A stretch of DNA of 63,957 nt, the filler included, from Albugo candida (lineage: Eukaryota), in NCBI GenBank assembly GCA_040437565.1. It is 6 parts of 6 records of this genome, joined end to end, with 100 filler letters (N's around TTAATTAATTAA, not from the genome) between each part and the next. Parts side by side here need not be neighbours in the genome. Positions count along the whole stretch, not along the records: positions 11,437 to 22,439 come from JBDOQK010000112.1; 5 more parts are not named here. The stretch is one strand, 5' to 3'. Positions 1,809 to 35,349 of the stretch are shown piece after piece. Each line of letters begins with the position of its first letter. Position 1 is the first letter of the stretch. The notes under the pieces were generated by a model. The model was not told the DNA's origin and did not search any database. It worked only from the letters and a program-made list of their open reading frames with translations. The translations under genes were made by a program, and so were the position numbers.

Positions 1809-2038
1809 TGTTGGAAAGTAACGACTCCACATTGCCATCCGTCGGACGTTTTGGTAAAACGATCCAAGGATCTAAATAGTGGTTTCGTATTCCTTCCGTT
1901 ATGGCCTGTCCCGACGCGGTGGTTTCATAAGTGAGGAAGGCCGTATGATGAGATACTAACGGTCATACATAATATAACTACTTCTATTTTTCCTCCCTTC
2001 AGTGAAGAAACTTTCCATTCTGTGCGGCATTTTCGACA
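1809..2038 (+). repeat. 5' LTR of Copia element 1
   Basis: Direct repeat of 6563-6792, 12 substitutions in 230 bp by manual count, TG...CA ends. Confidence 0.97.
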
Positions 2039-6562: not shown

Positions 6563-6792
6563 TGTTGGTAAGTAACGACTCCACATTGCCATCCGTCGGA
6601 CGTTTTGGTAAAACGATCCAAGGATCTAAATAGTGGTTTCGTATACCTTCCGTTCTGGACTGTCCCGACGCGGTGGTTTCGTAACTGAGGAACGCCGTAG
6701 GAAGAGATACTAACGGTCATACATAATATAACTATTTCTATTTTTCCTCCCTTCAGTGAAGAAACTTTTCTTTCTGTGCGGCATTTTCGACA
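6563..6792 (+). repeat. 3' LTR of Copia element 1
   Basis: Direct repeat of 1809-2038, followed by TSD CTCGC. Confidence 0.97.
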
Positions 6793-11336: not shown

Positions 11337-11436
11337 NNNNNNNNNNNNNNNNNNNNNNNNNNNNNNNNNNNNNNNNNNNNTTAATTAATTAANNNNNNNN
11401 NNNNNNNNNNNNNNNNNNNNNNNNNNNNNNNNNNNN
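11337..11436. other. Artificial contig linker (44 N, TTAATTAATTAA, 44 N)
   Basis: Identical 100-bp spacer with stops in all six frames, five copies in the window. Confidence 0.99.
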
Positions 11437-12132: not shown

Positions 12133-13242
12133 TGCCCATTCATGGTTAGTATCCCCTCTGGGAGTAGCACAAATCTATAAAAGGCGATTTTCCAGGCAGG
12201 GGGAGAGCTAACAACTTACAAAATGTTAAACGAGATTATTACCAGCGTATGTAAGGTGCTCAATGAGGAGGAAACAGAAGAATTATTCCTACCTGTAGTA
12301 GATAAAAGAGGAAAGTCATCACCCATATCCCATATGAAATAAACAATCCAGGGTTTCTGCTAGGTCATCAAATAATATTATGGCATTATTGGAAAATGTA
12401 GGTGGAGCTTCGGAAGCAAAGTTGCTGGCGAACCGAATGAAAAAAATCATAAGCTGTTATATTAAAATAGAGAGCTTAAGGGATCACCGCGTTGTTGGAT
12501 AATAAGGTTAGTAGTAGCAGTGTGTACATTATTGATATTACATAATTTGAATATTATTGGTATATATAAAAAAAAGGATGTAATATTTTAAATAATAGCC
12601 ATAGGCATATTGAATTGTTCCATAATGCGCTGTAGGTATTGAAAATGAATGCGGTCATACACCTTTTCTTGATCTGAAAGTAAGGCAATGGTTGAAGAGT
12701 TGTTATTATAAATAGCAGGTATTTCAAACAAGAAGTAAATCAAAAAAGCAAAAAAACAGCATATTCTTTTATCATTTTTTATTGGTCGAACAAGAGATTT
12801 CAGAAAAGGATCTCTGCATATATTTTTTTTACTTCTTTTTCTTTTTTACTTATTTTTTTTACTTTTTTTATATATACCTTTGCAGTTTACTTAACTCGCT
12901 GAATGCCCTGGAGCTGTTACCACTGGTAAGAAGGTCTATATCAGAGCCAATTTCTTTCAAGTTATCTGTTTCCCTACTCAAAGCATCTACCATTATGATG
13001 TCGCCATTGATCCCCCTAATGCTCCACGTAAGGTATGAAAGTCTTTTGAAGACGCTAATGCAAGTATTCTCGCTAGCTATCCACATAAACAAAAATGATT
13101 ATCGGTTATATGACATTAAGATAAAATCTTCCAAAGAAGTTAGGATTTATAATTGATTAATAACAATAATGCCACAGTAGTCAAAAAATAAAAATCAAAA
13201 ACAACTAAACTTTATTATTATGTAGGTAAAAAAACATCTTCT

Positions 13243-15201
13243 TCAATTATTTTCATCAATTTTCTCCTTTCTGACAGCAACTGGACTTTCACATTCATCT
13301 CTTCTAAATTTTCTTCTTTCTTCCTCCTTTTCATCTCTTCCTTCTCCTTCGATTGCTTCATACAATCTGTTAACGACTCCTTCGACAATTACCTATTTTG
13401 AGTTGTTAGAATATTAGCTTTTTCCTTGGTTAATTAATTATTGGATCAATTTTATATTTTACCTGGATTTGATGTAATTTCTCCATGATGCCAGGTACAA
13501 GCAAAAAATCGTCGAAACTATCTCTCACAAGGAAGAAAGTACTAAGCTCAATCATTCTATACTGACCATCGTATTCTAAATCCATTTTGAATACGGTGGC
13601 TTTGTAGCCTATTTTATATGTAATCAGTGACACCATTTATGTGTAATTGCTAAAATCACCATCTTATTACCTTCAACCAACAAAGAAACAATCATGGGCT
13701 TTCTCACATTACTTTCTATTAACTTATCTAAAGCCAATTTCATTTCTTTACCAAGCTTTACAATATCGGTTTCTAAATGACCGTTTGATACATTGCCTGG
13801 CTTTTTTACCTCTACAATGAATAGCTCAAAGTTACCAGTAGTAATTGGATTAACATACAAGGTAAAATCGGGAATCATGACTTGGCCCTTCTTTGATATC
13901 ATTCTGTATGTCATCCTAATGATTGTGTCAATGATTAAAATCTATCGTATTATTTACATGTACAATAATATATATATACCATTCTGTCTTTAATCCTTTT
14001 GTTTTAAATACAATACAATTTAAAAGAAAAGGTCTTAATGTCTCTACTGTTAAATTTGATTCGGATTCTTTTGTATTATTATGATTTGTAACAGTATATA
14101 ACAAAGATGAAATAATCTTAACTGCTGCTTTTTGATCTTTATTGCTTGTAGTAACAATCATTTCATCCAACTTATTGTTGTATTCGTCTTCTTGAATCAT
14201 TTTAATTATTCTATGACATGCGATTACGACGCTTTCATCAACTGCTTTATACTCCTTCTTGACTTCGAGGCTCTTTAAGATCAATGACTTTTCTGTTGGA
14301 TTCATTTTATATAATATGGAAGATTGGTTTGACTTAGAAAATAAAAAAATATAGGATAATGACCTTAAAAGACAACGTTAATAACCTAACTGGATAAAAT
14401 TACTATAACTTACAAAATACGGCTATTTGATAAGATTTTGCGCATTTGTGCGCCTTTGATAGATTCATTGCGGTAATCGCGCAATGAACTTGAAATATTT
14501 TTGCCATTAATAAACCACTACATAAAAAAGCATCAGTAAAGATACCAAACCCTCATTCTACGCATAATAATCTTACACATCCTTCAGAATCAGCACCAAA
14601 ATTAGTCTCAGCATATGTTCTACTAACGTATACCTTGACGAACTTCCTTGCTTGCTTGGGCTCTGCACTGCCCCACGAACTGATACTTCTTCCATCTACT
14701 TCTTCTGCTTCTTTTCTCTTGCCTAAAACTACTTTTCAATATAAAAAACATTAGTCATGTATTAGCACTACGTTAGTATTTAAAGTACCTTGGGAAGCCT
14801 CAGAAAGGGTTTGGTTGTTAACAACAACATTAATGGAGTCGTTGATGATAAAGTTGTTGTTGTAAGTAGCATTGCTACTGCTTGCATTCTCCTTCTTCTT
14901 TCCGCTAAACTTGGGTAAGAACTTTGATGTAATGTTCTTTTTTGTAACAGTAAGGATAAGCATTTGTAGAAATTAAATTTTTTTAAAAAAAAGTATTTAC
15001 CTCCCAGTTTTCCAAATATTTTCTGGCTACTGCCGCTTTTTCACCGTCGTCTTCCTCCTTAGATACTTCCACTAATTGTTTTTTCAAATAGTGTAGTATA
15101 TTGCGTACAGGTAACTGCGGTTCATCTTGTTCAATTTCTTCAAAAGCGGATTTCATGGACCATTGGTCGACGTTAGTATTTAGGAAGTAGTTAGAAACCA
15201 T
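13243..15201 (-). CDS. Intron-rich PD-(D/E)XK restriction-endonuclease-fold protein of the type expanded in Mucorales (Crinkler/CR-REase-like)
   Basis: Exon 1 15201-15001 (GT..AG intron 15000-14937), further short GT-AG introns; motif IPDF...FELFIVEVKK...DIVKLGKEMK.ALD...LLVEG...MDLEYDGQYRM; stop TGA at 13243-13245. Confidence 0.75.
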
Positions 15202-16458
15202 TATTAATAGAGGAAGCGGGAAAGAGCAAGAGAAAAAATAGTAAACTCTTTTAATTTATGTTTGCAGCTCTTCATGAATAAATACAAACAATATGAATAG
15301 TCAAAATGAGAGGTGAGAACATTACATTACATAACAGAGCATCAGCAAACTTTTACACAGTTCGGGTAGGTGTTACACAACTAGCTTAAATAATCAATAG
15401 TCGGAAATAATTAAGGGATCTAGTACACCTAATTATTTTATGACTAAAATGTTTGATTTTGTATAGAAGGCATGTTCAAAGTGCAAAAGATTAATAGATA
15501 GCTGTTGGCCGTATTATGTTACTCGAACAAGGGGATGAGTATACGGCGTAACCTAAGAGAATATATTATAGCAACAACTGTTTCGTTATTCGACCAAATA
15601 GGGAGGGAGAGCTTACTCAAGTTTATATAAGCATGAACCAATTTGTTGGTTTTCATTTTTTTTTACTAATCCGGCGATCGCTAGTAGCCCACTACAAGCG
15701 ATCGTTGGTTACGTTTATTTATTTATTTTTTTGCTTTTGCTTAGTAAAATATGTCTCAGAGATAAGTTACCATTGTAAAAGGAAAAGCTTGGGTGCTATA
15801 GTAAAATACTTTTATTTTTACTGCATGTGATGCGTAGTTAAACTGCTATTAAAATAGTTTCCTTCTTTTCACAATTATTTAACATTAGTAGACATAGCAA
15901 CTATTTTTTTGGTGAAGACGCTAAGTAATCACCATATTCTATGTAAGTATGTAAATAGTAAATAGCCTATCGGTATATTACAGCAGTATCTAACATTTCT
16001 TTTTTTATAAGGAGAAGATTTTGTTCATTAAACGTAATTTGTATAACTAGCATATTATTGACATAATATGTTTTGTGTAGATAGTGGTTAACTCTCTACA
16101 TTACCCTTTCGGTTGCTAGCATATGTTTAATATTTTACAAACGCAGTGAATTAAAAAAAAATGGTTTATTGTAATAAAAAAAAATAGTTTATTTTGATAC
16201 TAGTGTGTAATTTGTTGAGTCAAAAGTAGCGCAAAAATAAAAGAGATAGTACTAGATATTTGAAGTAAAGCATTTTGATGTTCTTTCCATTGTTCTGCTT
16301 TTGAACCAGAGTCTCTGAAAGTGTTACCATGGGGGCCAGTTAAATATCAAGGTGAAGAAAGAATCTATTTTTTAATTGCATTTGTTAGTTGGCTACTAAA
16401 AAATTAATCATTAGTACTTATCTTTAAAAAAGGGGGTTTCTTATCTCTCTAGTAAGCT

Positions 16459-16610
16459 GGAACAAGTGCAGATCTTACTAGTCATCAGGTCTACCAAAGT
16501 CGAGCGGAAACAAGTGCAGACCTCAGTCTTGGCTTACCCAGATAATGATACCGGAACAAGTGCAGATCATAAATGTGAGGACCCCATCGGGTTCAGTGGA
16601 ACAAGTGCAG
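16459..16610 (+). repeat. Regularly interspaced short direct repeats: 4 x GGA(A)ACAAGTGCAG with dissimilar 33, 32 and 31 nt spacers
   Basis: Repeats start at 16459, 16506, 16553 and 16598 (period 47, 47, 45). Confidence 0.9.
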
Positions 16611-16746
16611 CTTACTACCTCTGTTGATGATTAGAGAAAAGAACCCAACTTTTTATTTTTTCCAAAAATCCTCCCTTTTTATTTAATTCATAAATACTTC
16701 GATGACATCATCATATCAAGTTTGCCCAATTTACTAGAGGGATTTG

Positions 16747-16854
16747 GCATCCCCTTATACCATTGCATTTTTAGAAGGGGTTTGAATTTTTCCCCAGCAG
16801 CAGTACCGTATAAATTTAAACCCCTTCTAAAAATGCAATGGTATAAGGGGATGC
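16747..16854. repeat. Near-perfect palindrome: 43-bp arms, one mismatch, 22-nt spacer
   Basis: GCATCCCCTTATACCATTGCATTTTTAGAAGGGGTTTGAATTT (16747-16789) versus 16812-16854. Confidence 0.95.
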
Positions 16855-17416
16855 AGTTTTAAGTTTAATTCTGCATCGTTTGGTTTACTTTATTGATATA
16901 CCTATATATGTCTAACAAAAAGACGGCTTATTATCCGTTTTTTGAATTTTTGGTTTTTCTATAATACTCGCGGCATAATAGATAAAATTAAAGAATTCTA
17001 ACATAGACACCTACATTTTGCTGTTATATTGCATGCAAACAATATCCACCACTCTCGCTATTCGATGACACCTTTTATTGCTTCAGTAGTATTGATTTAT
17101 TTCATATCTCTGATTTTCGCAAGGGGACACTTTTGCAAAAGTCTCAGCTAATAATATTTGCAAATTCAAACACTCCTTAATTTTGGAAGATTTAAGTAAA
17201 TCGCAATATTTTTATAAATACGTTTTCAGTTTTGAAAGGAAGTATATATCCAGCATAGCTGGTTAAATCTGATTTATTTTCTTTTTGTGTTTTTTAATTT
17301 TTTTTTTTTTTTTTTTTTGTGTACTTTGTTATTTGAAATTACAACACTTTTTTTTAATCAAGCCAAGCCTATTTACTTTTATTCTGTCCACTCTATTTTT
17401 TTACTTACCCTGTGTG

Positions 17417-19870
17417 ATGTCTGGTCCTTCTGGTAACTCTAACTCTGTTTCTTCTACTACTATGGAAGTTGGTCCTATTCCTACGTCTCTTGCTAAATAT
17501 ATTGCTGAAATGATGGTTTTGATCAAGCGTAACTCTGATGAAACTTCGACTATTGCTTTCCAATTAGACGATGTCTCATTATCTGAAGAAGCTCGTCAAT
17601 AATTAGATGATAGGTAGGCTGTTTCCGAGTCAAGTATTGAAAGGTTGTCTGGCTCAGTGCTTCGTTTACAAAGGGCTGCTGCTGCTACTACTCCTGTTGC
17701 AGGTCCTGTTGTGAAGCAACAACCTAATGTTTGTCCTCGTAATCTACCTCTTTTCCAGTGGGAAAATGCAATTTTTGATCACCCTTCTTCTGTTTGCGTT
17801 TCTGTCTCTTGCTCGCGTAAGTTCGAAAATGTCTTGTTAGCACATGTGGTTTAATTTTAGATGATATTTTTTTGAGTTCGGTTCATTGGTTGTTTTTGCA
17901 TCATCAACACGTACTCTGTGGGTATGAGCAGTTTTTATTCAGTACAAAGTACGATGTGAAAGCAGCTCCTTTTACTTAGGTTGATTTCAAGATTGCTGTT
18001 ACTAGTCGTTATGGTCGTACAGTGGATGAAGATCGTGCTACGTATGCTGTTGAACTGGTGAACATTGTTACGAATAATGATGAATTTTTGTTCAATTTTA
18101 TTGATCGTTTTAGTGATCTTCGAATATTCGTCGTCATACTGTTGACCAGGTATTGCCTTCTTCTGTATAGATTGATAAGTTTTTGCGTGCTCTTCGTGAA
18201 AAGGTGATTGTGTCTAAATTGGTTATCCCATTTCCACATTTATTATAATAGGAAAAGAATTTTAGCCAAATCTGATTTTTTTACTACTGATAAGGATCCT
18301 TTTATTATTCTTGGAACAGATTTTTCGCCTAAATTGGGATTAGGTATGTAGACGGATTAGTTTCATTATGATTTGATTACGCTGATCTTCAGTTACCTTC
18401 TCCAATTGATCCTAATCTTGTTCAACCAAATAATACTCCTGTTGGTACTAATAGTGACCGACGCATTATACTTGCTACACTTCAGCCTTTGTTTGATGCT
18501 AACGTTGCTATTGATTCTAAATCTACTTCTTGTAATCTGAAAGGTGCTATAATTAAGTTAGAAATTCACCCTAAGCAAGTTGCATATAGAAAGCATTACC
18601 CTGTGCCATCGGCGTATAAGGAAGCTGTTATGAATCAATCAGAAGTTTGGAAAGAGGAAGGCGGTATTGAGCTTGCTCAAAGTTTTTCTGGTTTTAATAG
18701 TCCACTTCTTGTTGTTAGTAAAAATGATAGTACTGGGTGCTTATTCGTACAAGAAACCTCGTGCTGTTGCTGATGTGAGCCTTTAGATTCAATTCTCCTT
18801 TCTGTCGATAAACTCAATATCCCCTTACTTTCTGACATTTACCATCGGTATAGTAATGCTGATATTATTACCTGTATTGATATCAAGTCTTGTTTTACTA
18901 ATTTTCTTGTCAATCCTGCAGATAAACACAAGTTAGCTTTCACTTGTCATTTTACGAATGCTCAATACGTTTTTCGTAAAGTTTGTTTTGGTATTACCTT
19001 TATGGGTAATTTGGTTCAACGAGTTTTAACAACTCTCTTTCGTGGTTTACCCTATGTTTCTATTTATATGGATGATATCGGTGTTACTACTAATGGTGAT
19101 ATTAAACATTATACTGATTGTGTTGCTGAAGTTATCCGTCGCCTTACTGCTGCTAATTTAAAGATTGCTCCTAAAAAAATTGTTCTTGCTCAAAATAGTG
19201 TACATATTCTTGGTTGGACTATCGTTCAAGGTAAATTGATGCCTGATCCTCGTAAGGTTGCTACTGTTCACGCCTGGCCTCTTTCCAAGACTGGTAAAGA
19301 TGTCATGCATAATATGGGTTTCTTCAATTACTTTCGTTCGGCTATTCCTGGTTATAGTAAATTGGCTGCTCCTTTGGATTATTTACGTTCTTACAAGTCG
19401 TTGGATGGTGTTTTGACTGCGGTACGTGCTCAAGCATTTAAAAATTTACAATTGGCGTTAGCCTCTGCTCTTACTTTAACCTCTCCCAATTTTTCTTACC
19501 ATATGTACATCGCTACAGACGCTTCCTTGACTGGTATTGGTGGTATTATCTATTTCATTAAAGGTAATATTGTTAATTACGTGGCTATGGCTAGTTGCAT
19601 GCTGTCTACCTCAGAAATGAATTATTCCATTACGAAACGCGAACTGTTAGGCATTGTTTACATGTTGATCAAGTTCCATAGATGGTTGTTTGGTATTTGT
19701 TTTACGTTGCACACTGATCATTGTCGTCTCAGTCAGTTCCAAATGCTATGATGTTAAATTAGTATAAAGTTATTTTTGATATTGTTCGCATTCCCGGTAT
19801 TACCAATATTATTCCTGATGCTCTTAGTCGATTGTTCTCTGATGGCGATGTCGACAATCTGGAAGGCGGT
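17417..19870 (+). mobile_element. Decayed Ty3/Gypsy retrotransposon (gag, RT, RNase H; integrase not seen)
   Basis: gag-like CPRNLPLFQWE; RT FNSPLLVV and SIYMDD (~19065); RNase H ATDAS, YSITKRELLGIV, LHTDH, then IPDALSRL; frameshifted; LTRs not defined. Confidence 0.88.
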
Positions 19871-20099
19871 AAGTTATTGAACAAAAATAAGAAAAAGAAA
19901 GTTTTTTATAATAAAAAAAAAACAGAATGATCCCCAAGCGATGATTGCTTCGGTAATCAAAAAAATTAAAATTGTAATCGCTGATGCAACCCCCAATTTT
20001 TTGACGAAGACGAAGATAGAAAGGATATAGGTTGCAACCAACCTAGCTGAAGAGCAGAGAGCAGGTTGCTGTATAGCTATATTATAGATTGCTAAGCAG

Positions 20100-20450
20100 A
20101 CCTAAAGCCCCGTTGAAATCTTGGTAAGCAAACAGTATTAAAATCGACCTTCTTCTTGCACTATGTCGTATAATAGCCATTATAATAACAAGAAGGGTCA
20201 TCTTCTTGGAATATAAGGCGTGTCCTGTGTTTCTCAGAATGTATTTTCTCAAGCTAGGAGAAAAAATCATTGTTCAAACAATGGACATATCTGTCCTGAT
20301 TGACATCGCCACGCGTAGTCACCAAAGCACCTTACTTTCTAGCCCAAAACGCCTCCAAATCATGATAGAACTTTTACCTAATTTGAAGGTAGATAATATG
20401 AATCTTTCATGCAGTCTCTCACCCACCTTAGTTGTACATATTGCTACACG
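20100..20450 (-). mobile_element. Tc1-like transposase fragment
   Basis: Manual minus-strand translation: GERLHERFILSTFKLGKSSIMIW ... GDVNQDRYVHCL ... LIFQEDDPSC, resembling the Tc1 DDE core; frameshifted. Confidence 0.7.
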
Positions 20451-20473
20451 GTAAAATAAATAAGTGTTTTTAC

Positions 20474-21776
20474 TGGAGCGAACCAATTTTTGACAAACTC
20501 TACCGCCTATAGGGCCTATTTAAATTGAATCCTGCATCCTTTTTCTTGTTGTTGGAAGTTTTTAAAAAAAGAGAAATGTAAAAAGGCAAAAAGTATATAT
20601 ATTTAAACAAATTCATTCAAGTTTTTATCTTTAAATTTTACAATTAGTTGTTATACACTTAACATTAATTTTTTTATCGTTATAATAATCTATTTTTTAT
20701 TCCGTATATTTGGTTATTACTTTATACTTTTTTATTATCATTTTACATTACACTTTGAATCCGCTGGTTAATACTTTATTCCATTGTACTTAGTTTACTT
20801 TTTTTTACTCTACTTTGTTGTACAATTTAAGCCGTCCTACTTCTTCAACAACAGGAACTGGCGCTCGCTACTTTTATCTCTTGTTTCTACTATATAACTG
20901 CTTACTATCACAAAAACTAAAATTTACAACACACAGAGATAATATCATATATACTACTATTTACACACCAATTTCACTTCACTACCGCTAATCAATAGTA
21001 CATATTATATACGTTTACCTGTATATAACACCAATATTCTACAGATGCAGGTACAAGATATCTTCGAATATCTATGACTAATCGTTATGTTATGTCTGAA
21101 CGAAATGACAAATTCTATATTCGCTTGGCGGTAACCTCATCCAGTTTATTTAAATAGAGAACATGTTTATAATAAAAAAGTCTTTGAGATACCTTTTTGC
21201 AGCCGATTAATTCTATACCTTTTAATTTTCTCTGTTTTTTGTATGCAGTTTCAAATCATAACAACGCAAAAGAATCTGAGTCAGATTTGACAGTAGAGAT
21301 ATGAAGATCTATTTTTATTTTAAATTGCGTCGTACACAAGACAAAAGGCTTAAAACCCCAATGGTATATGTCGTATATGGAAATAATACGGTATATTTAA
21401 TCACTGACACAAGCTTTAGGATGACTTATAGAATGATATCCGCTATCCGCGAAAGGGTGAATTGTGATCCTTAATTTTCTCGTCTCAACCAATGAGACTA
21501 TGATGGTACGACGATTCTTGTCGCTTGAAGACCATGAACATTGAATTTCTTTATAAACATTGTCGTCAATAACTTTGTATGTATTGTTCCTCGCTGAAGG
21601 TAAAGAGCCAGGCAACATGTCTATAGCCATTTGGAAACAGACATCGTCAAAATTGCAAATATAAAAATAAAAACAAAAATAAAGATAAAAGACCGAGAGA
21701 TTGTTGCTTTGTTATTAGTGGAAAGTATATAACAAGTTGGTTTACATAGCAGTTGTAAAAAAGTGGTTGCGCTCCA
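20474..21776. mobile_element. Putative non-autonomous TIR element with ~24-bp degenerate inverted repeats
   Basis: TGGAGCG-AACCAATTTTTGACAA (20474-20496) versus reverse complement of 21753-21776, TGGAGCGCAACCACTTTTTTACAA; no TSD identified. Confidence 0.4.
21239..21363 (+). pseudogene. Isolated exon fragment paralogous to the PD-(D/E)XK gene at 13243-15201
   Basis: LYAVSNHNNAKESESDLTVEI*RSIFILNCVVHKTKGLKPQW versus LYTVTNHNNTKESESNLTVETLRPFLLNCIVFKTKGLKTEW, followed by the same GTATAT donor. Confidence 0.85.
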
Positions 21777-22439: not shown

Positions 22440-22539
22440 NNNNNNNNNNNNNNNNNNNNNNNNNNNNNNNNNNNNNNNNNNNNTTAATTAATTAANNNNN
22501 NNNNNNNNNNNNNNNNNNNNNNNNNNNNNNNNNNNNNNN
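22440..22539. other. Artificial contig linker
   Basis: 44 N, TTAATTAATTAA, 44 N. Confidence 0.99.
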
Positions 22540-28427: not shown

Positions 28428-28882
28428 AAGATAATTTCGGATGGTTTCCCGGTTGGCTCTGACTCCTACGTGTGCATGTATTGCAAGTCAGCTGTTAAGT
28501 ACAACAGAATCGTGTTAGATGTCTCAAAGATGGAATAAAAGAGATCATATTTTTACTGAAAGACGAGAAGATAAAACCCGCTGAGATGCTCTACTTGTGA
28601 GGAGACACACTAAATGCTGGCAAAGATGTGACACATCTCAGTAACGGATGCCAATGTGTACTTTATTTGAATGGTAAGCTTTCATGTAGCTTGCAATCAC
28701 TCTGTAGCCTCTAGCCTATTCATGCAAATTAGCAGCGGTGGGGCCCATCGGCGGAGTCAAAGACCCTCCTCTAAATATCAACCTACTTAATTAAGCTAAT
28801 TCAATATGGCTTGGAAACATGAATATGTACCGAAGATTTTATTTTATTAGCTTCAGACGATAATGAACTCTCAAATGAAGTA

Positions 28883-29041
28883 ATGCGCGAAAGTATTTAT
28901 TGAGTGGAGCCCAAACTCCAGAAAAATGGGTTTCTCTAGTGAGTAGAATGATTAAATAAGAATGATTAAAAATCATTCTACTCACTTGAGAAACCCATTT
29001 TTCTGGAGTTTGGGCTCCACTCAATAAATACTTTCGCGCAT
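28883..29041. mobile_element. MITE with ~71-bp inverted arms flanked by TA (Tc1/mariner-type)
   Basis: 28881-28953 is the reverse complement of 28971-29043 with one mismatch; TA at 28881-28882 and 29042-29043. Confidence 0.85.
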
Positions 29042-29594
29042 TAATCATAATGAAGAGTGTATATTGTTCTATCCTTACTTCACTATCAACTAAACGAAGC
29101 CTATCCACTCTATTCCTATGTCAGAACCACTGATCATGCTGTTTGAATTCTCTTTTACAATTAAGCAACGTTAGCGAGTTTTAGCGATGGAAGCGTTGGG
29201 TGATGATTTTTTTTTATGTTTGTACCCAGAAAGCTGCCATATCTATTCCATTTCCTCTATCACTCTCAGGTTTCGTTCGGTGTATATTTCTGAAAATCAA
29301 ACACAGAAAGCAGATTTTTAAATGTGGGGACCGAGTTAGATGGCAACCAAAACAATGAGTCAAGCCCAAAGCGCCCTTTTCAACAGCTATTAAACAACCG
29401 TACAGCCTTCATCGTTCGCCACAAACGACTTTCTCGACAAGTGATACAAAATACAAACAATTTGTGATTTTCGTTTTGTTTTAGTCAACCCTCAAACCTA
29501 AAATCTGCCACGATGTGCTTTATCATTCAGTAAAGTGCGTCAGAAGCAGCACATTAATCCATGAAAACCAGCCAGCAAAAGCCAGCTGCATATA

Positions 29595-33081: not shown

Positions 33082-33181
33082 NNNNNNNNNNNNNNNNNNN
33101 NNNNNNNNNNNNNNNNNNNNNNNNNTTAATTAATTAANNNNNNNNNNNNNNNNNNNNNNNNNNNNNNNNNNNNNNNNNNNN
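33082..33181. other. Artificial contig linker
   Basis: 44 N, TTAATTAATTAA, 44 N. Confidence 0.99.
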
Positions 33182-33938
33182 CAATTAGTGTACCACGTGC
33201 CAAATCAGGGGGGAAAACGATTTCGAATCCACGATCTTGCAGTTTTCGCAAAGTGTATTGTATTAACGCTAATTCCATCATGGCTGCTTCATTACGAAGG
33301 TATATAAATTTTGATCCAGCGACTTTAGCTCCACTCAAAGTGTCAATCAAGTCCAGGTCGTGCATAAGATCGGAATGATCTCTCAAGGGAAAGTCAAATT
33401 TGGGTTTCTCACCATAGGAAGCGATCAGTTTTGAGGCATTATCAGATCCAATTGGCGTGTGTGGATGCGTATCATTTGGGAGCTTCATGGCTTCCATCTC
33501 CAATTCACTGGTTATTTGCTCAAGCTCATTTTCTTTGGAAGTAATCGTTTCTTTCAGCTGCCTACCATTTCGTTGCATATCTTTCAATAAATCGTCCATT
33601 GTGTCCAATTCTTGCGATTTTCTTGCTCCGATCTGCTGAACAGAAATATTCCGCCTTGCTCGTAGGTGATTTAGCTCTGTTTCCAAGGTTCTTCGATGCT
33701 GATATAACACCGCTACCCGCTCGGGATTTGCATCGCATTTTCTATTTCGTACGTTTCGAACCCATTCATCTAGATTTTCCGTCACTTTCTTGTAGTCAAG
33801 GCGAGGTTTGACGGTAGAATACGTAACTTGACGATACAAGCTTTGAATCCTTTGGCCGTGAAGGCGCATGTTGATTACCGTTGTTAACCTGTTAAGTAAT
33901 ACAGGCCAGAGTGCTAGTAGCATGAAAACATGCGGCAT
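33182..33938 (-). CDS. Seryl-tRNA synthetase, probably mitochondrial; N-terminal part (start may be 33869), 3' truncated
   Basis: Coiled-coil arm, then KLPNDTHPHTPIG, RDHSDL, GAKVAGSKFIYLRNEAAMMELAL, GFEIVFPPDL. Confidence 0.92.
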
Positions 33939-34635
33939 TGGCTTCGATGTCCTATTTCTCCTTTTGATATCCGATTTAGAATTTACACATTCAGCATTCA
34001 GGGAGAGGATAGATCAACCCAGTTCAATGCTTGCATCTCACTAAATACGAGTTGAGTGTACACTTAGTTGTCCCCACTAAGTGGCGGCAATCGTCGACGT
34101 TATCTATCGCAGTCAATAAAGTCCGTGGAAAATCTCATTTCTTAGAGGTATTTGTGTCAAGGCAATAGATTCCATTGAGAAAAGACAGTTTTAATGAAAT
34201 GAGAAGCCATCGAAGCCGGCAATTTGTATTCACCCGTTTTTGACTGAAATGCAAATCCTTCGATTAAGCTGACCATAAAAATCAAAAAAATTGGACCGTA
34301 TACTTCCACGTGAATCGCTTCTTGAGCTATCCCAAACCACTTATATGCTCATGTAATACATTCTGCGAGTTGCGACAGCATGTCTCAAACAAAATGACTG
34401 GAAAACAATTACGTTGCTAAATTTTCGACGTCTCTCGATTATTCCATCGAAGAACACTTCTGGTTGTAAAGTGTACACTTTAGCCATATTTCGACCATAC
34501 AAAATTCAGTAAGAATATAAGTTTTCGTCTATTATCTGCGAATTGGTCGAAATTCGCTCGCCACCAGAGCACATTTACGTTACGCCCACTCGAAAAAGCA
34601 TGTGATGCAAGTGGACGGAGCAAAAGGTATATGCG

Positions 34636-35190
34636 CTACATACGGTAGATTTCATGACGTAATCGCGACAACCTCATCATAAGCATTCGCCTAATGTTTG
34701 CGTCAATATCCGGATCGATATCGCCTTCTGTAAGAAAGGCAATACTACTCAATGTTGTAAAACCCTTTTGTTCCAATGTCTGACCCAATGGGATCAGATC
34801 TGAGTGACAGGCGGACATCCATTGTACCACTTCGCCTTGATCGCATACAAATCCAAACAAATGCGCGTGTTCTTTCGCAGAATTCAACCTCTTTCGTATC
34901 CGTACATCCGGAGAGAGAATTCGATTTTCCTCTTTTCTCACGCAGCGTGAATCAGCTGCAAATTCTTTTGCTTCATGGCTCATACCGCACACTTTTGTTG
35001 ATTCCTTTACAGACAAAAATAGACAGCGAATAGAACAAGTCAGTATATCCTCTACCGTTTCTGCTACTTGGTATCCTTTAAAGAAGGCGTTTTTCTCTCC
35101 ACAGTACGTATACATCTTCCATAATGTGTCTGTGCCTTTTTTGTGATCCTCAGCCAATACATACCAAACTTTGAATTTTTTTCAACCCTA
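34636..35190 (-). CDS. Small protein with PH-like N-terminus and SAM-like C-terminus; 5' end unresolved
   Basis: C-terminal VVQWM...LEQKGFTTLSSIAFLTEGDI...RRMLM is SAM-like; KKFKVWYVL...LWKMYTY upstream; apparent +1 in a T7 run at 35176-35182. Confidence 0.55.
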
Positions 35191-35349
35191 AAATATGAAC
35201 CTGTCATTAGCACTGCCTGCTGGCGACCTTATCCGCATCACCAATAGAGAGCAAGTTTAAAAGGCTGCAGTCTGTGTCTTCGCTATAGTATAGTACAATA
35301 GCAGACTACCCTCGTAAGACCAGGTAGCAGCATAGCTCAGTTGACTGAA

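What the first reader, a model, noticed from the sequence alone, without database searches (positions are those of the whole stretch)
16459..16610. CRISPR-like mini-array in a fungal-type contig: near-invariant 13-15 bp repeats with dissimilar 31-33 nt spacers
Seen: GGAACAAGTGCAG(A) x4 with spacers TCTTACTAGTCATCAGGTCTACCAAAGTCGAGC, CCTCAGTCTTGGCTTACCCAGATAATGATACC and TCATAAATGTGAGGACCCCATCGGGTTCAGT, GC-richer than the surroundings. Constant repeat and spacing with variable spacers is not what neutral decay of a tandem repeat usually gives. It lies between a PD-(D/E)XK gene and a Gypsy gag-RT. Speculative inference: a guide- or processing-type array. Mundane alternative: phased factor-binding sites (CAAGTG is an E-box) in an LTR U3, since a PPT-like AAAAAAGGGGG precedes it and ...GATGACA at 16707 could end an LTR. 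No cas genes are present, and I saw no spacer match in the window.
Basis: partly seen in the sequence, partly recalled or inferred. Interest (0 to 1): 0.8.

Follow-up and report, generated by a model that had tools for sequence, protein, structure and literature searches.

The report
Four phased 13-bp motif copies
Four identical 13-base motifs, about 46 bases apart with unrelated sequence between them, form a small GC-rich island in non-coding DNA beside a broken Gypsy retrotransposon on a Mucor-like fungal contig; they look most like a cluster of protein-binding sites, not a CRISPR-like array.

Summary
GGAACAAGTGCAG occurs at 16459, 16553 and 16598, and as GGAAACAAGTGCAG at 16506. All four copies are on the + strand. 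The spacers are 34, 33 and 32 nt and are no more alike than shuffled sequence. The array is the GC-richest 152-bp stretch of its contig (48% against 30% in the flanks).

The context needs correcting. The window is six contigs joined by N linkers. The array contig (11437-22439, 33% GC) looks Mucoromycota-like, while another contig is Albugo-like.

The array lies in non-coding DNA about 0.8 kb upstream of the gag start of a degraded Gypsy copy. I found no cas-like gene, no Rfam family, no significant RNA fold, no coding signal and no spacer match.

LTR membership could not be shown. There is no second LTR copy, and no adjoining PPT or PBS.

Best reading (0.4): a same-orientation cluster of binding sites for a sequence-specific DNA-binding protein, acting as an enhancer, terminator or barrier, or as a TE-associated element. 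Rivals are a transcribed RNA array, subterminal transposase-binding sites, and others.

No fungal genome DNA and no RNA data were reachable, so copy number, conservation and transcription remain untested.

The parts
16459..16471 (+). Core copy 1, GGAACAAGTGCAG (followed by ATC)
16472..16505 (+). Spacer 1, 34 nt, 44% GC. Its start, CTTACTAG, is the inverse of the left flank's CTAGTAAG.
16506..16519 (+). Core copy 2, GGAAACAAGTGCAG (one extra A in the A run; followed by ACC)
16520..16552 (+). Spacer 2, 33 nt, 45% GC
16553..16565 (+). Core copy 3, GGAACAAGTGCAG (followed by ATC)
16566..16597 (+). Spacer 3, 32 nt, 47% GC. It holds a small local hairpin, GGACCC-CAUC-GGGUUC (z -1.75, 13 of 200 shuffles fold as well).
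16598..16610 (+). Core copy 4, GGAACAAGTGCAG (followed by CTTACTAC)
16450..16459 (.). Left arm, TAGTAAGCTG, of a perfect 10-bp inverted repeat that brackets the whole array. The right arm, CAGCTTACTA, is at 16608-16617.
   Evidence: I16
16608..16617 (.). Right arm of the bracketing 10-bp inverted repeat
   Evidence: I16
16425..16460 (.). Left flank, AAAAAAGGGGGTTTCTTATCTCTCTAGTAAGCTGG. It has two partial inverted copies to the right of the array, at 16629-16651 and 16731-16756.
   Evidence: Local alignment scores were 24 and 22, reached by 14-15 and 7 of 1000 shuffles.
16629..16651 (.). First inverted partial copy of the left flank (AGAGAAAAGAACCCAACTTTTT)
16731..16756 (.). Second inverted partial copy of the left flank. 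It overlaps the left arm of the palindrome.
   Evidence: (I2)
16745..16856 (.). Near-perfect palindrome (arms 16745-16791 and 16810-16856, 43 of 47 matched). It is the source of all the sub-threshold miRNA-like Rfam hits. Multi-copy cover in run X1 starts in the bin that holds it.
17417..19870 (+). Degraded Ty3/Gypsy copy whose relatives carry a chromodomain. Putative gag ATG is near 17417; gag homology runs 17576-18230. The rest of gag and the protease region are deleted. RT-RNase H runs 18348-19870, and the copy is cut off near 19870.
13430..14305 (-). PD-(D/E)XK-like gene in three ORF pieces (introns or frameshifts). It belongs to a family of hypothetical proteins commonest in Mucoromycota. 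It is context only; no link to the array is shown.

Best explanation
The array is a DNA-level cluster of four same-orientation binding sites for one sequence-specific DNA-binding protein, of a kind that reads 13-16 bp (for example a multi-zinc-finger, Myb-like or transposase-derived domain). The sites sit about 46 bp apart inside a constrained, GC-richer island in otherwise AT-rich, TE-ridden non-coding DNA of a Mucoromycota-like genome. Bound protein at four equally oriented sites would act as a directional element. That could be an upstream activating or enhancer block for the retroelement or a neighbouring gene, or a polar terminator or replication-fork barrier of the RTS1 or Sal-box type.

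Shown: the anatomy, meaning invariant cores, unrelated equal-length spacers, one orientation, a composition island and a non-coding position. Inferred: that a protein binds, and what the binding does.
For: 1. Conservation is at the nucleotide level and is sharply bounded. Three exact 13-mers and one copy with a single extra A stand against spacers that align no better than shuffles.
2. It is not protein-level conservation. The cores read EQVQ/KQVQ in one frame for copies 1-2 and GTSA for copies 3-4, and periods of 47, 47 and 45 break the frame. All four copies use identical codons, with no synonymous difference (reasoning).
3. Spacer length is held at 32-34 nt and all copies point one way. That fits a spacing and orientation constraint.
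4. The whole unit, spacers included, is a composition island. It is the GC-richest 152-bp window of the contig, and the spacers are 45% GC against 30% nearby, p = 0.001. Old neutral DNA should have drifted to the local AT-rich composition.
5. The position is non-coding, between a minus-strand gene and a plus-strand Gypsy. No protein homology lies between 15255 and about 17417, and the array starts 959 nt upstream of the putative gag ATG.
6. The architecture has fungal precedent. Region B of S. pombe RTS1 holds four repeated motifs bound by the Myb-domain protein Rtf1 and acts as a polar barrier (passages of PMC10473836).
Against: - No binding protein is known, and no motif match to a named factor was made.
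- Identity of 13 of 13 bases in every copy is tighter than most transcription-factor sites need.
- The spacing of 45-48 bp is about 4.5 helical turns, so neighbouring sites face opposite sides of the helix.
- No homologous locus could be examined, so selection is inferred from a single locus.
- The GC-rich spacers and the inverted repeat that brackets the array would fit a transcribed RNA equally well.
- A recent origin by an unknown mechanism would also give identical cores without any selection.
Confidence: 0.4

Rival explanations
1. The array is part of a transposable element's own cis machinery. It could be the U3 part of the 5' LTR of the adjoining Gypsy, or the subterminal transposase-binding repeats of an unrecognised non-autonomous DNA transposon or foldback element whose ends are the inverted copies of the left flank.
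For: - The array starts 959 nt upstream of the putative gag ATG (about 17417). Contigs of full-length relatives carry only about 290-850 nt beyond the polyprotein ORF, so an LTR here is just possible.
- The left flank (16425-16460) has two inverted partial copies right of the array, reached by 7-15 of 1000 shuffles. A perfect 10-bp inverted repeat brackets the array.
- Motif clusters with unrelated spacers are how En/Spm TnpA sites and Tn7 end sites are laid out (recalled, not from a call).
Against: - The contig holds no second copy of the region.
- The contig holds no inverted copy of the 13-mer, even at up to 3 mismatches.
- The PPT-like run is 21 nt from the first TG, and no TGG-type PBS follows a candidate LTR end. 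TG...CA pairs with 5-7 bp terminal inverted repeats are about as frequent as a rough hand estimate of chance.
- No target-site duplication is evident at the candidate ends (read).
Confidence: 0.15
2. The island is a gene for a non-coding RNA in which the constant 13-16-nt repeat is a processing site or a protein- or RNA-binding motif. This is a sponge-like or punctuated RNA, and includes the reader's 'processing-type array'.
For: - A GC-rich island in AT-rich intergenic DNA is a classic signature of an RNA gene (the principle is recalled).
- The 10-bp perfect inverted repeat, plus a 12-of-15 outer helix (16435-16449 with 16632-16646), could close the array into one domain.
- Runs of T follow the array on both strands.
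Against: - The fold energy is not better than shuffles: z = -0.05 (+) and -0.67 (-) for 16430-16650. Of the eight sub-fragments, the best two give z = -1.75 and -1.65.
- No Rfam family reaches threshold. The only hit that touches the array is fiv_FSE at 16.5 bits, E = 1.9.
- T runs and TATA-like strings are common in 30%-GC DNA.
Confidence: 0.15
3. It is a decayed tandem duplication or minisatellite with no function, and the cores are identical by chance or by local gene conversion.
For: The unit length is near-constant and the copies lie head to tail.
Against: - The spacers are at random-level similarity while 13 contiguous positions are identical in all copies. Under equal neutral rates that is vanishingly unlikely.
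- TRF does not score the array.
- The spacers are not at the local base composition.
Confidence: 0.05
4. It is the remnant of a protein-coding repeat with motif (E/K)QVQ every 15-16 residues and one frameshift.
For: Two + frames are open across the array, of 70 and 50 codons. With one frameshift between copies 2 and 3, all four cores read (E/K)QVQ.
Against: - The four cores show no synonymous variation, while the linkers are unrelated.
- A search of 1.84 billion representatives with the 70-aa frame gave only 2 weak hits (E = 6e-6 and 2e-5). Both are unrelated internally repetitive proteins.
- Pfam is empty for the adjoining frame.
Confidence: 0.03
5. It is a true CRISPR-like adaptive array, in which spacers are acquired from invaders and repeats direct processing into guides.
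For: It has uniform repeats, spacers of 32-34 nt (a typical CRISPR spacer length), unrelated spacers, and an AT-rich stretch upstream.
Against: - The repeat is 13-16 nt, and there are only four copies.
- The contig is eukaryotic, with a Gypsy element and Mucoromycota-type genes.
- No cas-like domain appears in the 14 ORFs scanned.
- The spacers match nothing in the window or, as exact 28-mers, in IMG/VR.
- The same 13-mer pair elsewhere occurs only in unrelated sequence, mostly bacterial coding repeats.
Confidence: 0.02

Closest known systems
Homotypic clusters of transcription-factor sites, including repeated enhancer elements in retroelement LTR U3 regions (general knowledge, recalled)
   Same: Several copies of one short motif lie in one orientation within about 150 bp of non-coding DNA upstream of a retroelement gag. 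Only the motif is conserved.
   Different: LTR enhancer repeats are usually whole-unit duplications, so their spacers are alike. Here the spacers are unrelated, the motif is unusually long and exact, and LTR membership is not shown.
RTS1 region B of Schizosaccharomyces pombe: four repeated motifs bound by the Myb-domain protein Rtf1, a polar replication-fork barrier (passages of PMC10473836). The mouse rDNA Sal-box terminators bound by TTF-I are a similar case (recalled).
   Same: Both are fungal, with four copies of a motif in one orientation in non-coding DNA. Function comes from protein binding and depends on direction.
   Different: RTS1 region B spans about 450 bp, so its spacing is wider. 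I made no sequence comparison, and no Rtf1-like factor or mating-type or rDNA context is evident here.
Subterminal transposase-binding motifs of DNA transposons (En/Spm TnpA 12-bp motifs, Tn7 end sites; recalled, not from a call)
   Same: A 12-22-bp motif is repeated with unrelated spacers within about 150-300 bp next to inverted-repeat ends.
   Different: Those elements carry the motif at both ends and often in both orientations. Here there is no second cluster and no inverted copy in 11 kb, the terminal inverted repeats are weak, and no target-site duplication is seen.
CRISPR arrays
   Same: Constant repeats alternate with unrelated spacers of 32-34 nt.
   Different: The repeat is half the minimum usual length and has no dyad. 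There are four copies, no cas genes, a eukaryotic host and no protospacer match.
Centromere-specific 41-bp motif of Mucor circinelloides (bioRxiv 10.1101/706580; passages read)
   Same: A short conserved DNA motif next to AT-rich, gene-poor, retroelement-rich DNA in a Mucorales genome.
   Different: That motif is 41 bp, occurs once per centromere and is flanked by Grem-LINE1 elements, not Gypsy. Its letters are only in a figure, so I could not compare sequences.

Membership tests
CRISPR array | Direct repeats of about 23-55 bp (range recalled), often partly palindromic | tested here: not met
   The conserved block is 13-16 nt with no internal dyad.
CRISPR array | Unrelated spacers of uniform length | tested here: met
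   Spacers are 34, 33 and 32 nt. Pairwise z ran from -0.79 to 1.22.
CRISPR array | cas genes nearby, and a prokaryotic or viral replicon | tested here: not met
   14 ORFs of the 11-kb contig were scanned against Pfam, and only RVT_1 and RNase H hits appeared. The contig carries a Gypsy element and Mucoromycota-type genes.
CRISPR array | Spacers match mobile elements or viruses | tested here: not met
   No match beyond chance in the window. 0 of 3 exact 28-mers were found in IMG/VR. Fungal TEs and mycoviruses outside these sets were not searchable.
LTR of an LTR retrotransposon (U3 region) | A second, near-identical LTR copy flanking the internal region | tested here: not met
   No second copy of 16400-17300 exists in the contig. 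The element is cut off near 19870, so a 3' LTR may simply be lost.
LTR of an LTR retrotransposon (U3 region) | TG...CA termini, with the PBS directly after the 5' LTR or the PPT directly before the 3' LTR | tested here: inconclusive
   TG...CA pairs with 5-7 bp inverted ends occur about as often as a rough hand estimate of chance. No TGG-type PBS stands at a candidate end. The PPT-like run is 21 nt from the first TG.
LTR of an LTR retrotransposon (U3 region) | Same copy number and distribution as the element family in the genome | not testable with these tools
   No genome is held. The one DNA run laid gave no usable cover over the array.
Tandem repeat / minisatellite | Similarity across the whole unit | tested here: not met
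   TRF at score 30 finds nothing at 16459-16610. The spacers are at random-level similarity.
DNA-transposon subterminal repeats / MITE | Terminal inverted repeats with a target-site duplication | tested here: inconclusive
   There are imperfect inverted copies of the left flank, reached by 7-15 of 1000 shuffles. No target-site duplication is seen on reading the flanks.
DNA-transposon subterminal repeats / MITE | The motif is also present, inverted, at the other end | tested here: not met
   Within the contig, at up to 3 mismatches, there are only the four + copies and one 3-mismatch hit at 18399-18412 inside the Gypsy ORF.
Known RNA families (Rfam 15), including C/D snoRNAs and tRNAs | Covariance-model match at or near the gathering score | tested here: not met
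   0 matches at gathering score in the whole window. At E up to 10, only fiv_FSE (16.5 bits against a gathering score of 53) touches the array. ARAGORN finds no tRNA.
Protein-coding repeat | In-frame period, synonymous variation and homologous proteins | tested here: not met
   Periods are 47, 47 and 45, and the codons are identical in all cores. Only 2 unrelated repetitive proteins were found among 1.84 billion representatives.

The most novel reading that the evidence does not exclude
A eukaryotic (Mucoromycota) locus in which a constant 13-16-nt site punctuates unrelated units of about 33 nt with non-local base composition. One form is a transcribed array processed at the repeats into guide-like small RNAs. 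Another is a site that has repeatedly taken up heterologous DNA between duplicated copies of one recognition sequence. Both would be a repeat-spacer system outside prokaryotes. The evidence does not exclude this, because the spacers are compositionally foreign to their surroundings, the cores are exactly identical (consistent with recent origin), and no RNA or comparative data could be obtained.
Probability: 0.04. Interest if true: 0.85.

Novelty: new member of a known kind. Interest (0 to 1): 0.3.

Why it matters
If it is a binding-site cluster, it gives a ready 13-16-bp bait. That bait could identify a sequence-specific DNA-binding protein acting next to retroelements in an early-diverging fungus, a group whose cis-regulatory and fork-barrier elements are, to my recollection, barely described. 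If the cluster belongs to a TE, it would define that family's cis element.

The practical lessons for the scan matter as well. The window is a concatenate of contigs from at least two organisms, so context must be read contig by contig. And a repeat-spacer look alone does not make a CRISPR analogue.

Tried and rejected
- **Whole-genome search:** none is held for this window.
- **Sequencing runs:** one DNA run (X1) holds 0.86 of the sampled words of 16250-16900, and no RNA holder is listed. Laying X1 at 80% likeness on 13000-21000 gave depth 0 over 14068-15402 and 15937-16737. From the bin starting at 16738 onward, summed depth was 42-288. I use it only as a hint that the multi-copy Gypsy part starts near the palindrome.
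- **Pattern scans for two cores 28-38 nt apart:** Genome contigs gave 3 hits and viral contigs 0. Metagenome contigs gave 2 hits with a looser pattern. Four of the 5 hits are bacterial coding tandem repeats whose spacers are alike; the fifth is a lone pair in GC-rich sequence. None resembles the array.
- **Gypsy relatives in viral contigs:** none.
- **Protein-level proxies for other copies:** the 70-aa frame over the array gave 2 unrelated hits. The 75-aa frame to the right of it gave no candidate.
- **Cluster look-up of the closest Gypsy relatives:** no organism names.
- **Literature search for the 13-mer and its reverse complement:** 2 irrelevant papers (listing only) and 0 papers.
- **RNA ideas:** folds are not significant. 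C/D-box reading by eye found scattered UGAUGA and CUGA strings on the minus strand, but not in snoRNA order.
- **LTR termini and PBS scan:** nothing convincing.
- **The idea that the complement of TGGAACAAGTGCAG is a tRNA 3' end (a PBS):** untestable, as no tRNA genes are in the window.
- **Mucor centromere motif:** its sequence is not in the text.
- **Naming a factor from memory (E-box, HMG, Ste12, Zn2Cys6 CGG):** no consistent fit. Dropped.

Full report
**1. What is there**

Reading 16000-17100 and a mismatch search confirm four + strand copies of GGAACAAGTGCAG. Three are exact, at 16459, 16553 and 16598. The fourth, at 16506-16519, carries one extra A in the A run. Three copies continue with A(T/C)C.

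Unit lengths are 47, 47 and 45 nt, and the spacers are 34, 33 and 32 nt. Tandem Repeats Finder at its lowest score does not see the array, which already shows that the units are not alike as wholes.

In 200 first-order Markov simulations of the contig, no 13-mer reached three exact copies within 160 bp; the maximum was 2. Ten pairwise alignments of spacers and flanks gave z from -0.79 to 1.22 against shuffles. Fifteen reverse-complement comparisons gave z of at most 1.76.

The array is the GC-richest 152-bp window of its contig. It is 48.0% GC, and only 0.055% of windows reach that value, all of them overlapping the array. The spacers alone are 45 of 99 G+C against 30.3% in the surrounding 2 kb, p = 0.001.

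**2. Context, corrected**

The window is not one molecule. It is six contigs of 9.9-11.3 kb joined by N44-TTAATTAATTAA-N44 linkers. The array lies on the second contig (11437-22439), which is 33% GC against 43-45% for the others.

A ClpX-like ORF on the fourth contig is 89% identical to Albugo laibachii ClpX, with the next best oomycetes near 60%. The array contig, by contrast, is Mucoromycota-like:
- Its RT-RNase H ORF (18774-19748; Pfam RVT_1 and RT_RNaseH) has best named relatives in Mucor velutinosus (55%) and Circinella minor (51%). Unnamed relatives reach 72% and 69%. These relatives carry gag, integrase and chromodomain families.
- The upstream PD...EVK ORF falls nearest to three Atlas clusters of hypothetical proteins whose commonest phylum is Mucoromycota.

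tblastn with the relatives shows a degraded + strand Gypsy:
- gag homology runs 17576-18230, and the putative ATG is near 17417;
- the segment matching about residues 305-632 of a 1715-aa relative is missing;
- RT-RNase H runs 18348-19870;
- nothing follows after about 19870.

Nothing protein-like lies between 15255 and about 17417. On the minus strand, 13430-14305 holds a PD-(D/E)XK-like gene in three pieces. Its Pfam support is sub-threshold only (HSDR_N E = 0.084, TnsA-like E = 0.15).

**3. Fine anatomy around the array**

- A perfect 10-bp inverted repeat (TAGTAAGCTG at 16450-16459, CAGCTTACTA at 16608-16617) brackets the four cores.
- The left flank (16425-16460) has two partial inverted copies to the right, at 16629-16651 and 16731-16756. 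Their alignment scores were reached by 14-15 and 7 of 1000 shuffles.
- The second inverted copy overlaps a near-perfect palindrome (16745-16791 with 16810-16856). That palindrome accounts for all the sub-threshold miRNA-like Rfam hits.
There is no other similarity between the two places.

**4. Tests of the readings**

*CRISPR-like array.*
- The repeat is 13-16 nt and has no dyad.
- The contig is eukaryotic.
- Fourteen ORFs of the contig give no Cas-like domain.
- The spacers have no match in the window beyond chance. Their longest exact matches are 10, 10 and 9 nt, against a null mean of about 10.5.
- As exact 28-mers, 0 of 3 spacers occur in IMG/VR.
- Scans of public collections for two cores 28-38 nt apart found only unrelated sequence, mostly bacterial coding repeats.

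*RNA.*
- There is no Rfam match at gathering score in the window.
- Only a 16.5-bit chance-level hit touches the array, and there is no tRNA.
- Folding z-scores are -0.05 (+) and -0.67 (-). The sub-fragments are not significant.
- No RNA run is listed, so transcription is untested.

*Coding.*
- Two + frames are open. With one frameshift, all four cores read (E/K)QVQ.
- The period breaks the frame, however, and the four cores use identical codons while the linkers are unrelated.
- The 70-aa frame finds only two unrelated repetitive proteins among 1.84 billion representatives.

*LTR.*
- The contig has no second copy.
- The PPT-like run is 21 nt from the first TG.
- There is no TGG-type PBS, and no termini better than a rough hand estimate of chance.
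- The distance to gag (959 nt) is at the upper edge of what relatives allow. Their contigs exceed the polyprotein ORF by about 290-850 nt.

*DNA-transposon end.*
- The inverted flank copies are suggestive.
- The motif has no inverted copy within the contig, and I see no target-site duplication.

**5. Interpretation**

Three features together argue for constraint on DNA or RNA sequence as such. The cores are invariant at the nucleotide level. Spacer length is fixed, but spacer sequence is unrelated and not at the local composition. All copies share one orientation. Neither protein-level selection nor neutral decay explains that combination.

The simplest known kind of object with this anatomy is a homotypic, directional cluster of binding sites for a sequence-specific DNA-binding protein. 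Fungal precedent exists in RTS1 region B, where four motifs bound by the Myb-domain protein Rtf1 form a polar fork barrier (passages of PMC10473836).

I cannot say whether the cluster serves the adjoining Gypsy (as an enhancer or U3), a host gene, or replication or transcription termination. Binding itself is inferred, not shown. I give this reading 0.4.

The other readings get these weights:

| Reading | Weight |
|---|---|
| TE-cis-element version (LTR U3 or subterminal transposase sites) | 0.15 |
| RNA-gene version | 0.15 |
| Neutral decay | 0.05 |
| Coding repeat | 0.03 |
| True CRISPR-like array | 0.02 |

The rest is left open.

**6. Limits**

- No Mucorales DNA other than this contig could be reached.
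- The single DNA run gave no usable cover over the array.
- Copy number, conservation and strain variation of the spacers would decide between the readings, and all three remain untested.
- The Mucor centromere 41-bp motif (10.1101/706580, passages) could not be compared, because its letters are only in a figure.

**7. Verdict**

This is a real and unusual small feature. It is not CRISPR-like in any defining respect beyond its look. It is most likely an ordinary kind of element, a phased binding-site cluster, in a poorly studied lineage. Interest is 0.3. The repeat-spacer reading keeps about 0.04 probability.

Noticed in passing
window 11337-11436, 22440-22539, 33082-33181, 43604-43703, 53919-54018: The window is a concatenate of six contigs (11336, 11003, 10542, 10422, 10215 and 9939 bp) joined by N44-TTAATTAATTAA-N44 linkers. 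Context must be read contig by contig.
   Followed up: yes
window 39138-40673 (-), contig 33182-43603: A ClpX-like AAA+ ORF is 89% identical to Albugo laibachii Nc14 ClpX. The array contig is Mucoromycota-like. The assembly therefore mixes at least an oomycete and a fungus.
   Followed up: partly
window 1809-2038 and 6563-6792: A 230-nt direct repeat pair, 95% identical and 4754 bp apart. It looks like the LTR pair of a 5-kb element on the first contig (45% GC) and is unrelated to the Gypsy family of the array contig.
   Followed up: no
window 28881-28953 and 28971-29043: A 73-nt inverted repeat, 99% complementary with a 17-nt loop, on the third contig.
   Followed up: no
window 16745-16856: A near-perfect 47-nt-arm palindrome just right of the array. 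It gives many sub-threshold miRNA-precursor Rfam hits, the best being 52.5 bits against a gathering score of 83. Multi-copy cover in run X1 begins in its bin, so it may be a foldback or MITE-like repeat.
   Followed up: partly
window 17417-19870 and 19815-21000: The Gypsy family is multi-copy in run X1, with summed contig depth 42-288 against about 0.4-17 in the flanking bins that have cover. This copy lacks the segment between gag and RT. A different multi-copy contig (depth 74) starts at 19815, where the Gypsy homology stops.
   Followed up: partly
window 13430-15255 (-): A PD...EVK (PD-(D/E)XK-like) gene is split into several ORF pieces. Its relatives are short hypothetical proteins in Atlas clusters of 59-117 members, commonest in Mucoromycota. 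It may itself be a repeated, TE-associated gene family.
   Followed up: partly
L001 6473-6533, L002 2686-2749, L003 1899-1959, L005 5703-5761: The same 13-mer recurs in bacterial coding tandem repeats reading EQVQ or GTSA. This shows that a pair of identical 13-mers about 30-40 nt apart is not specific to the array.
   Followed up: yes
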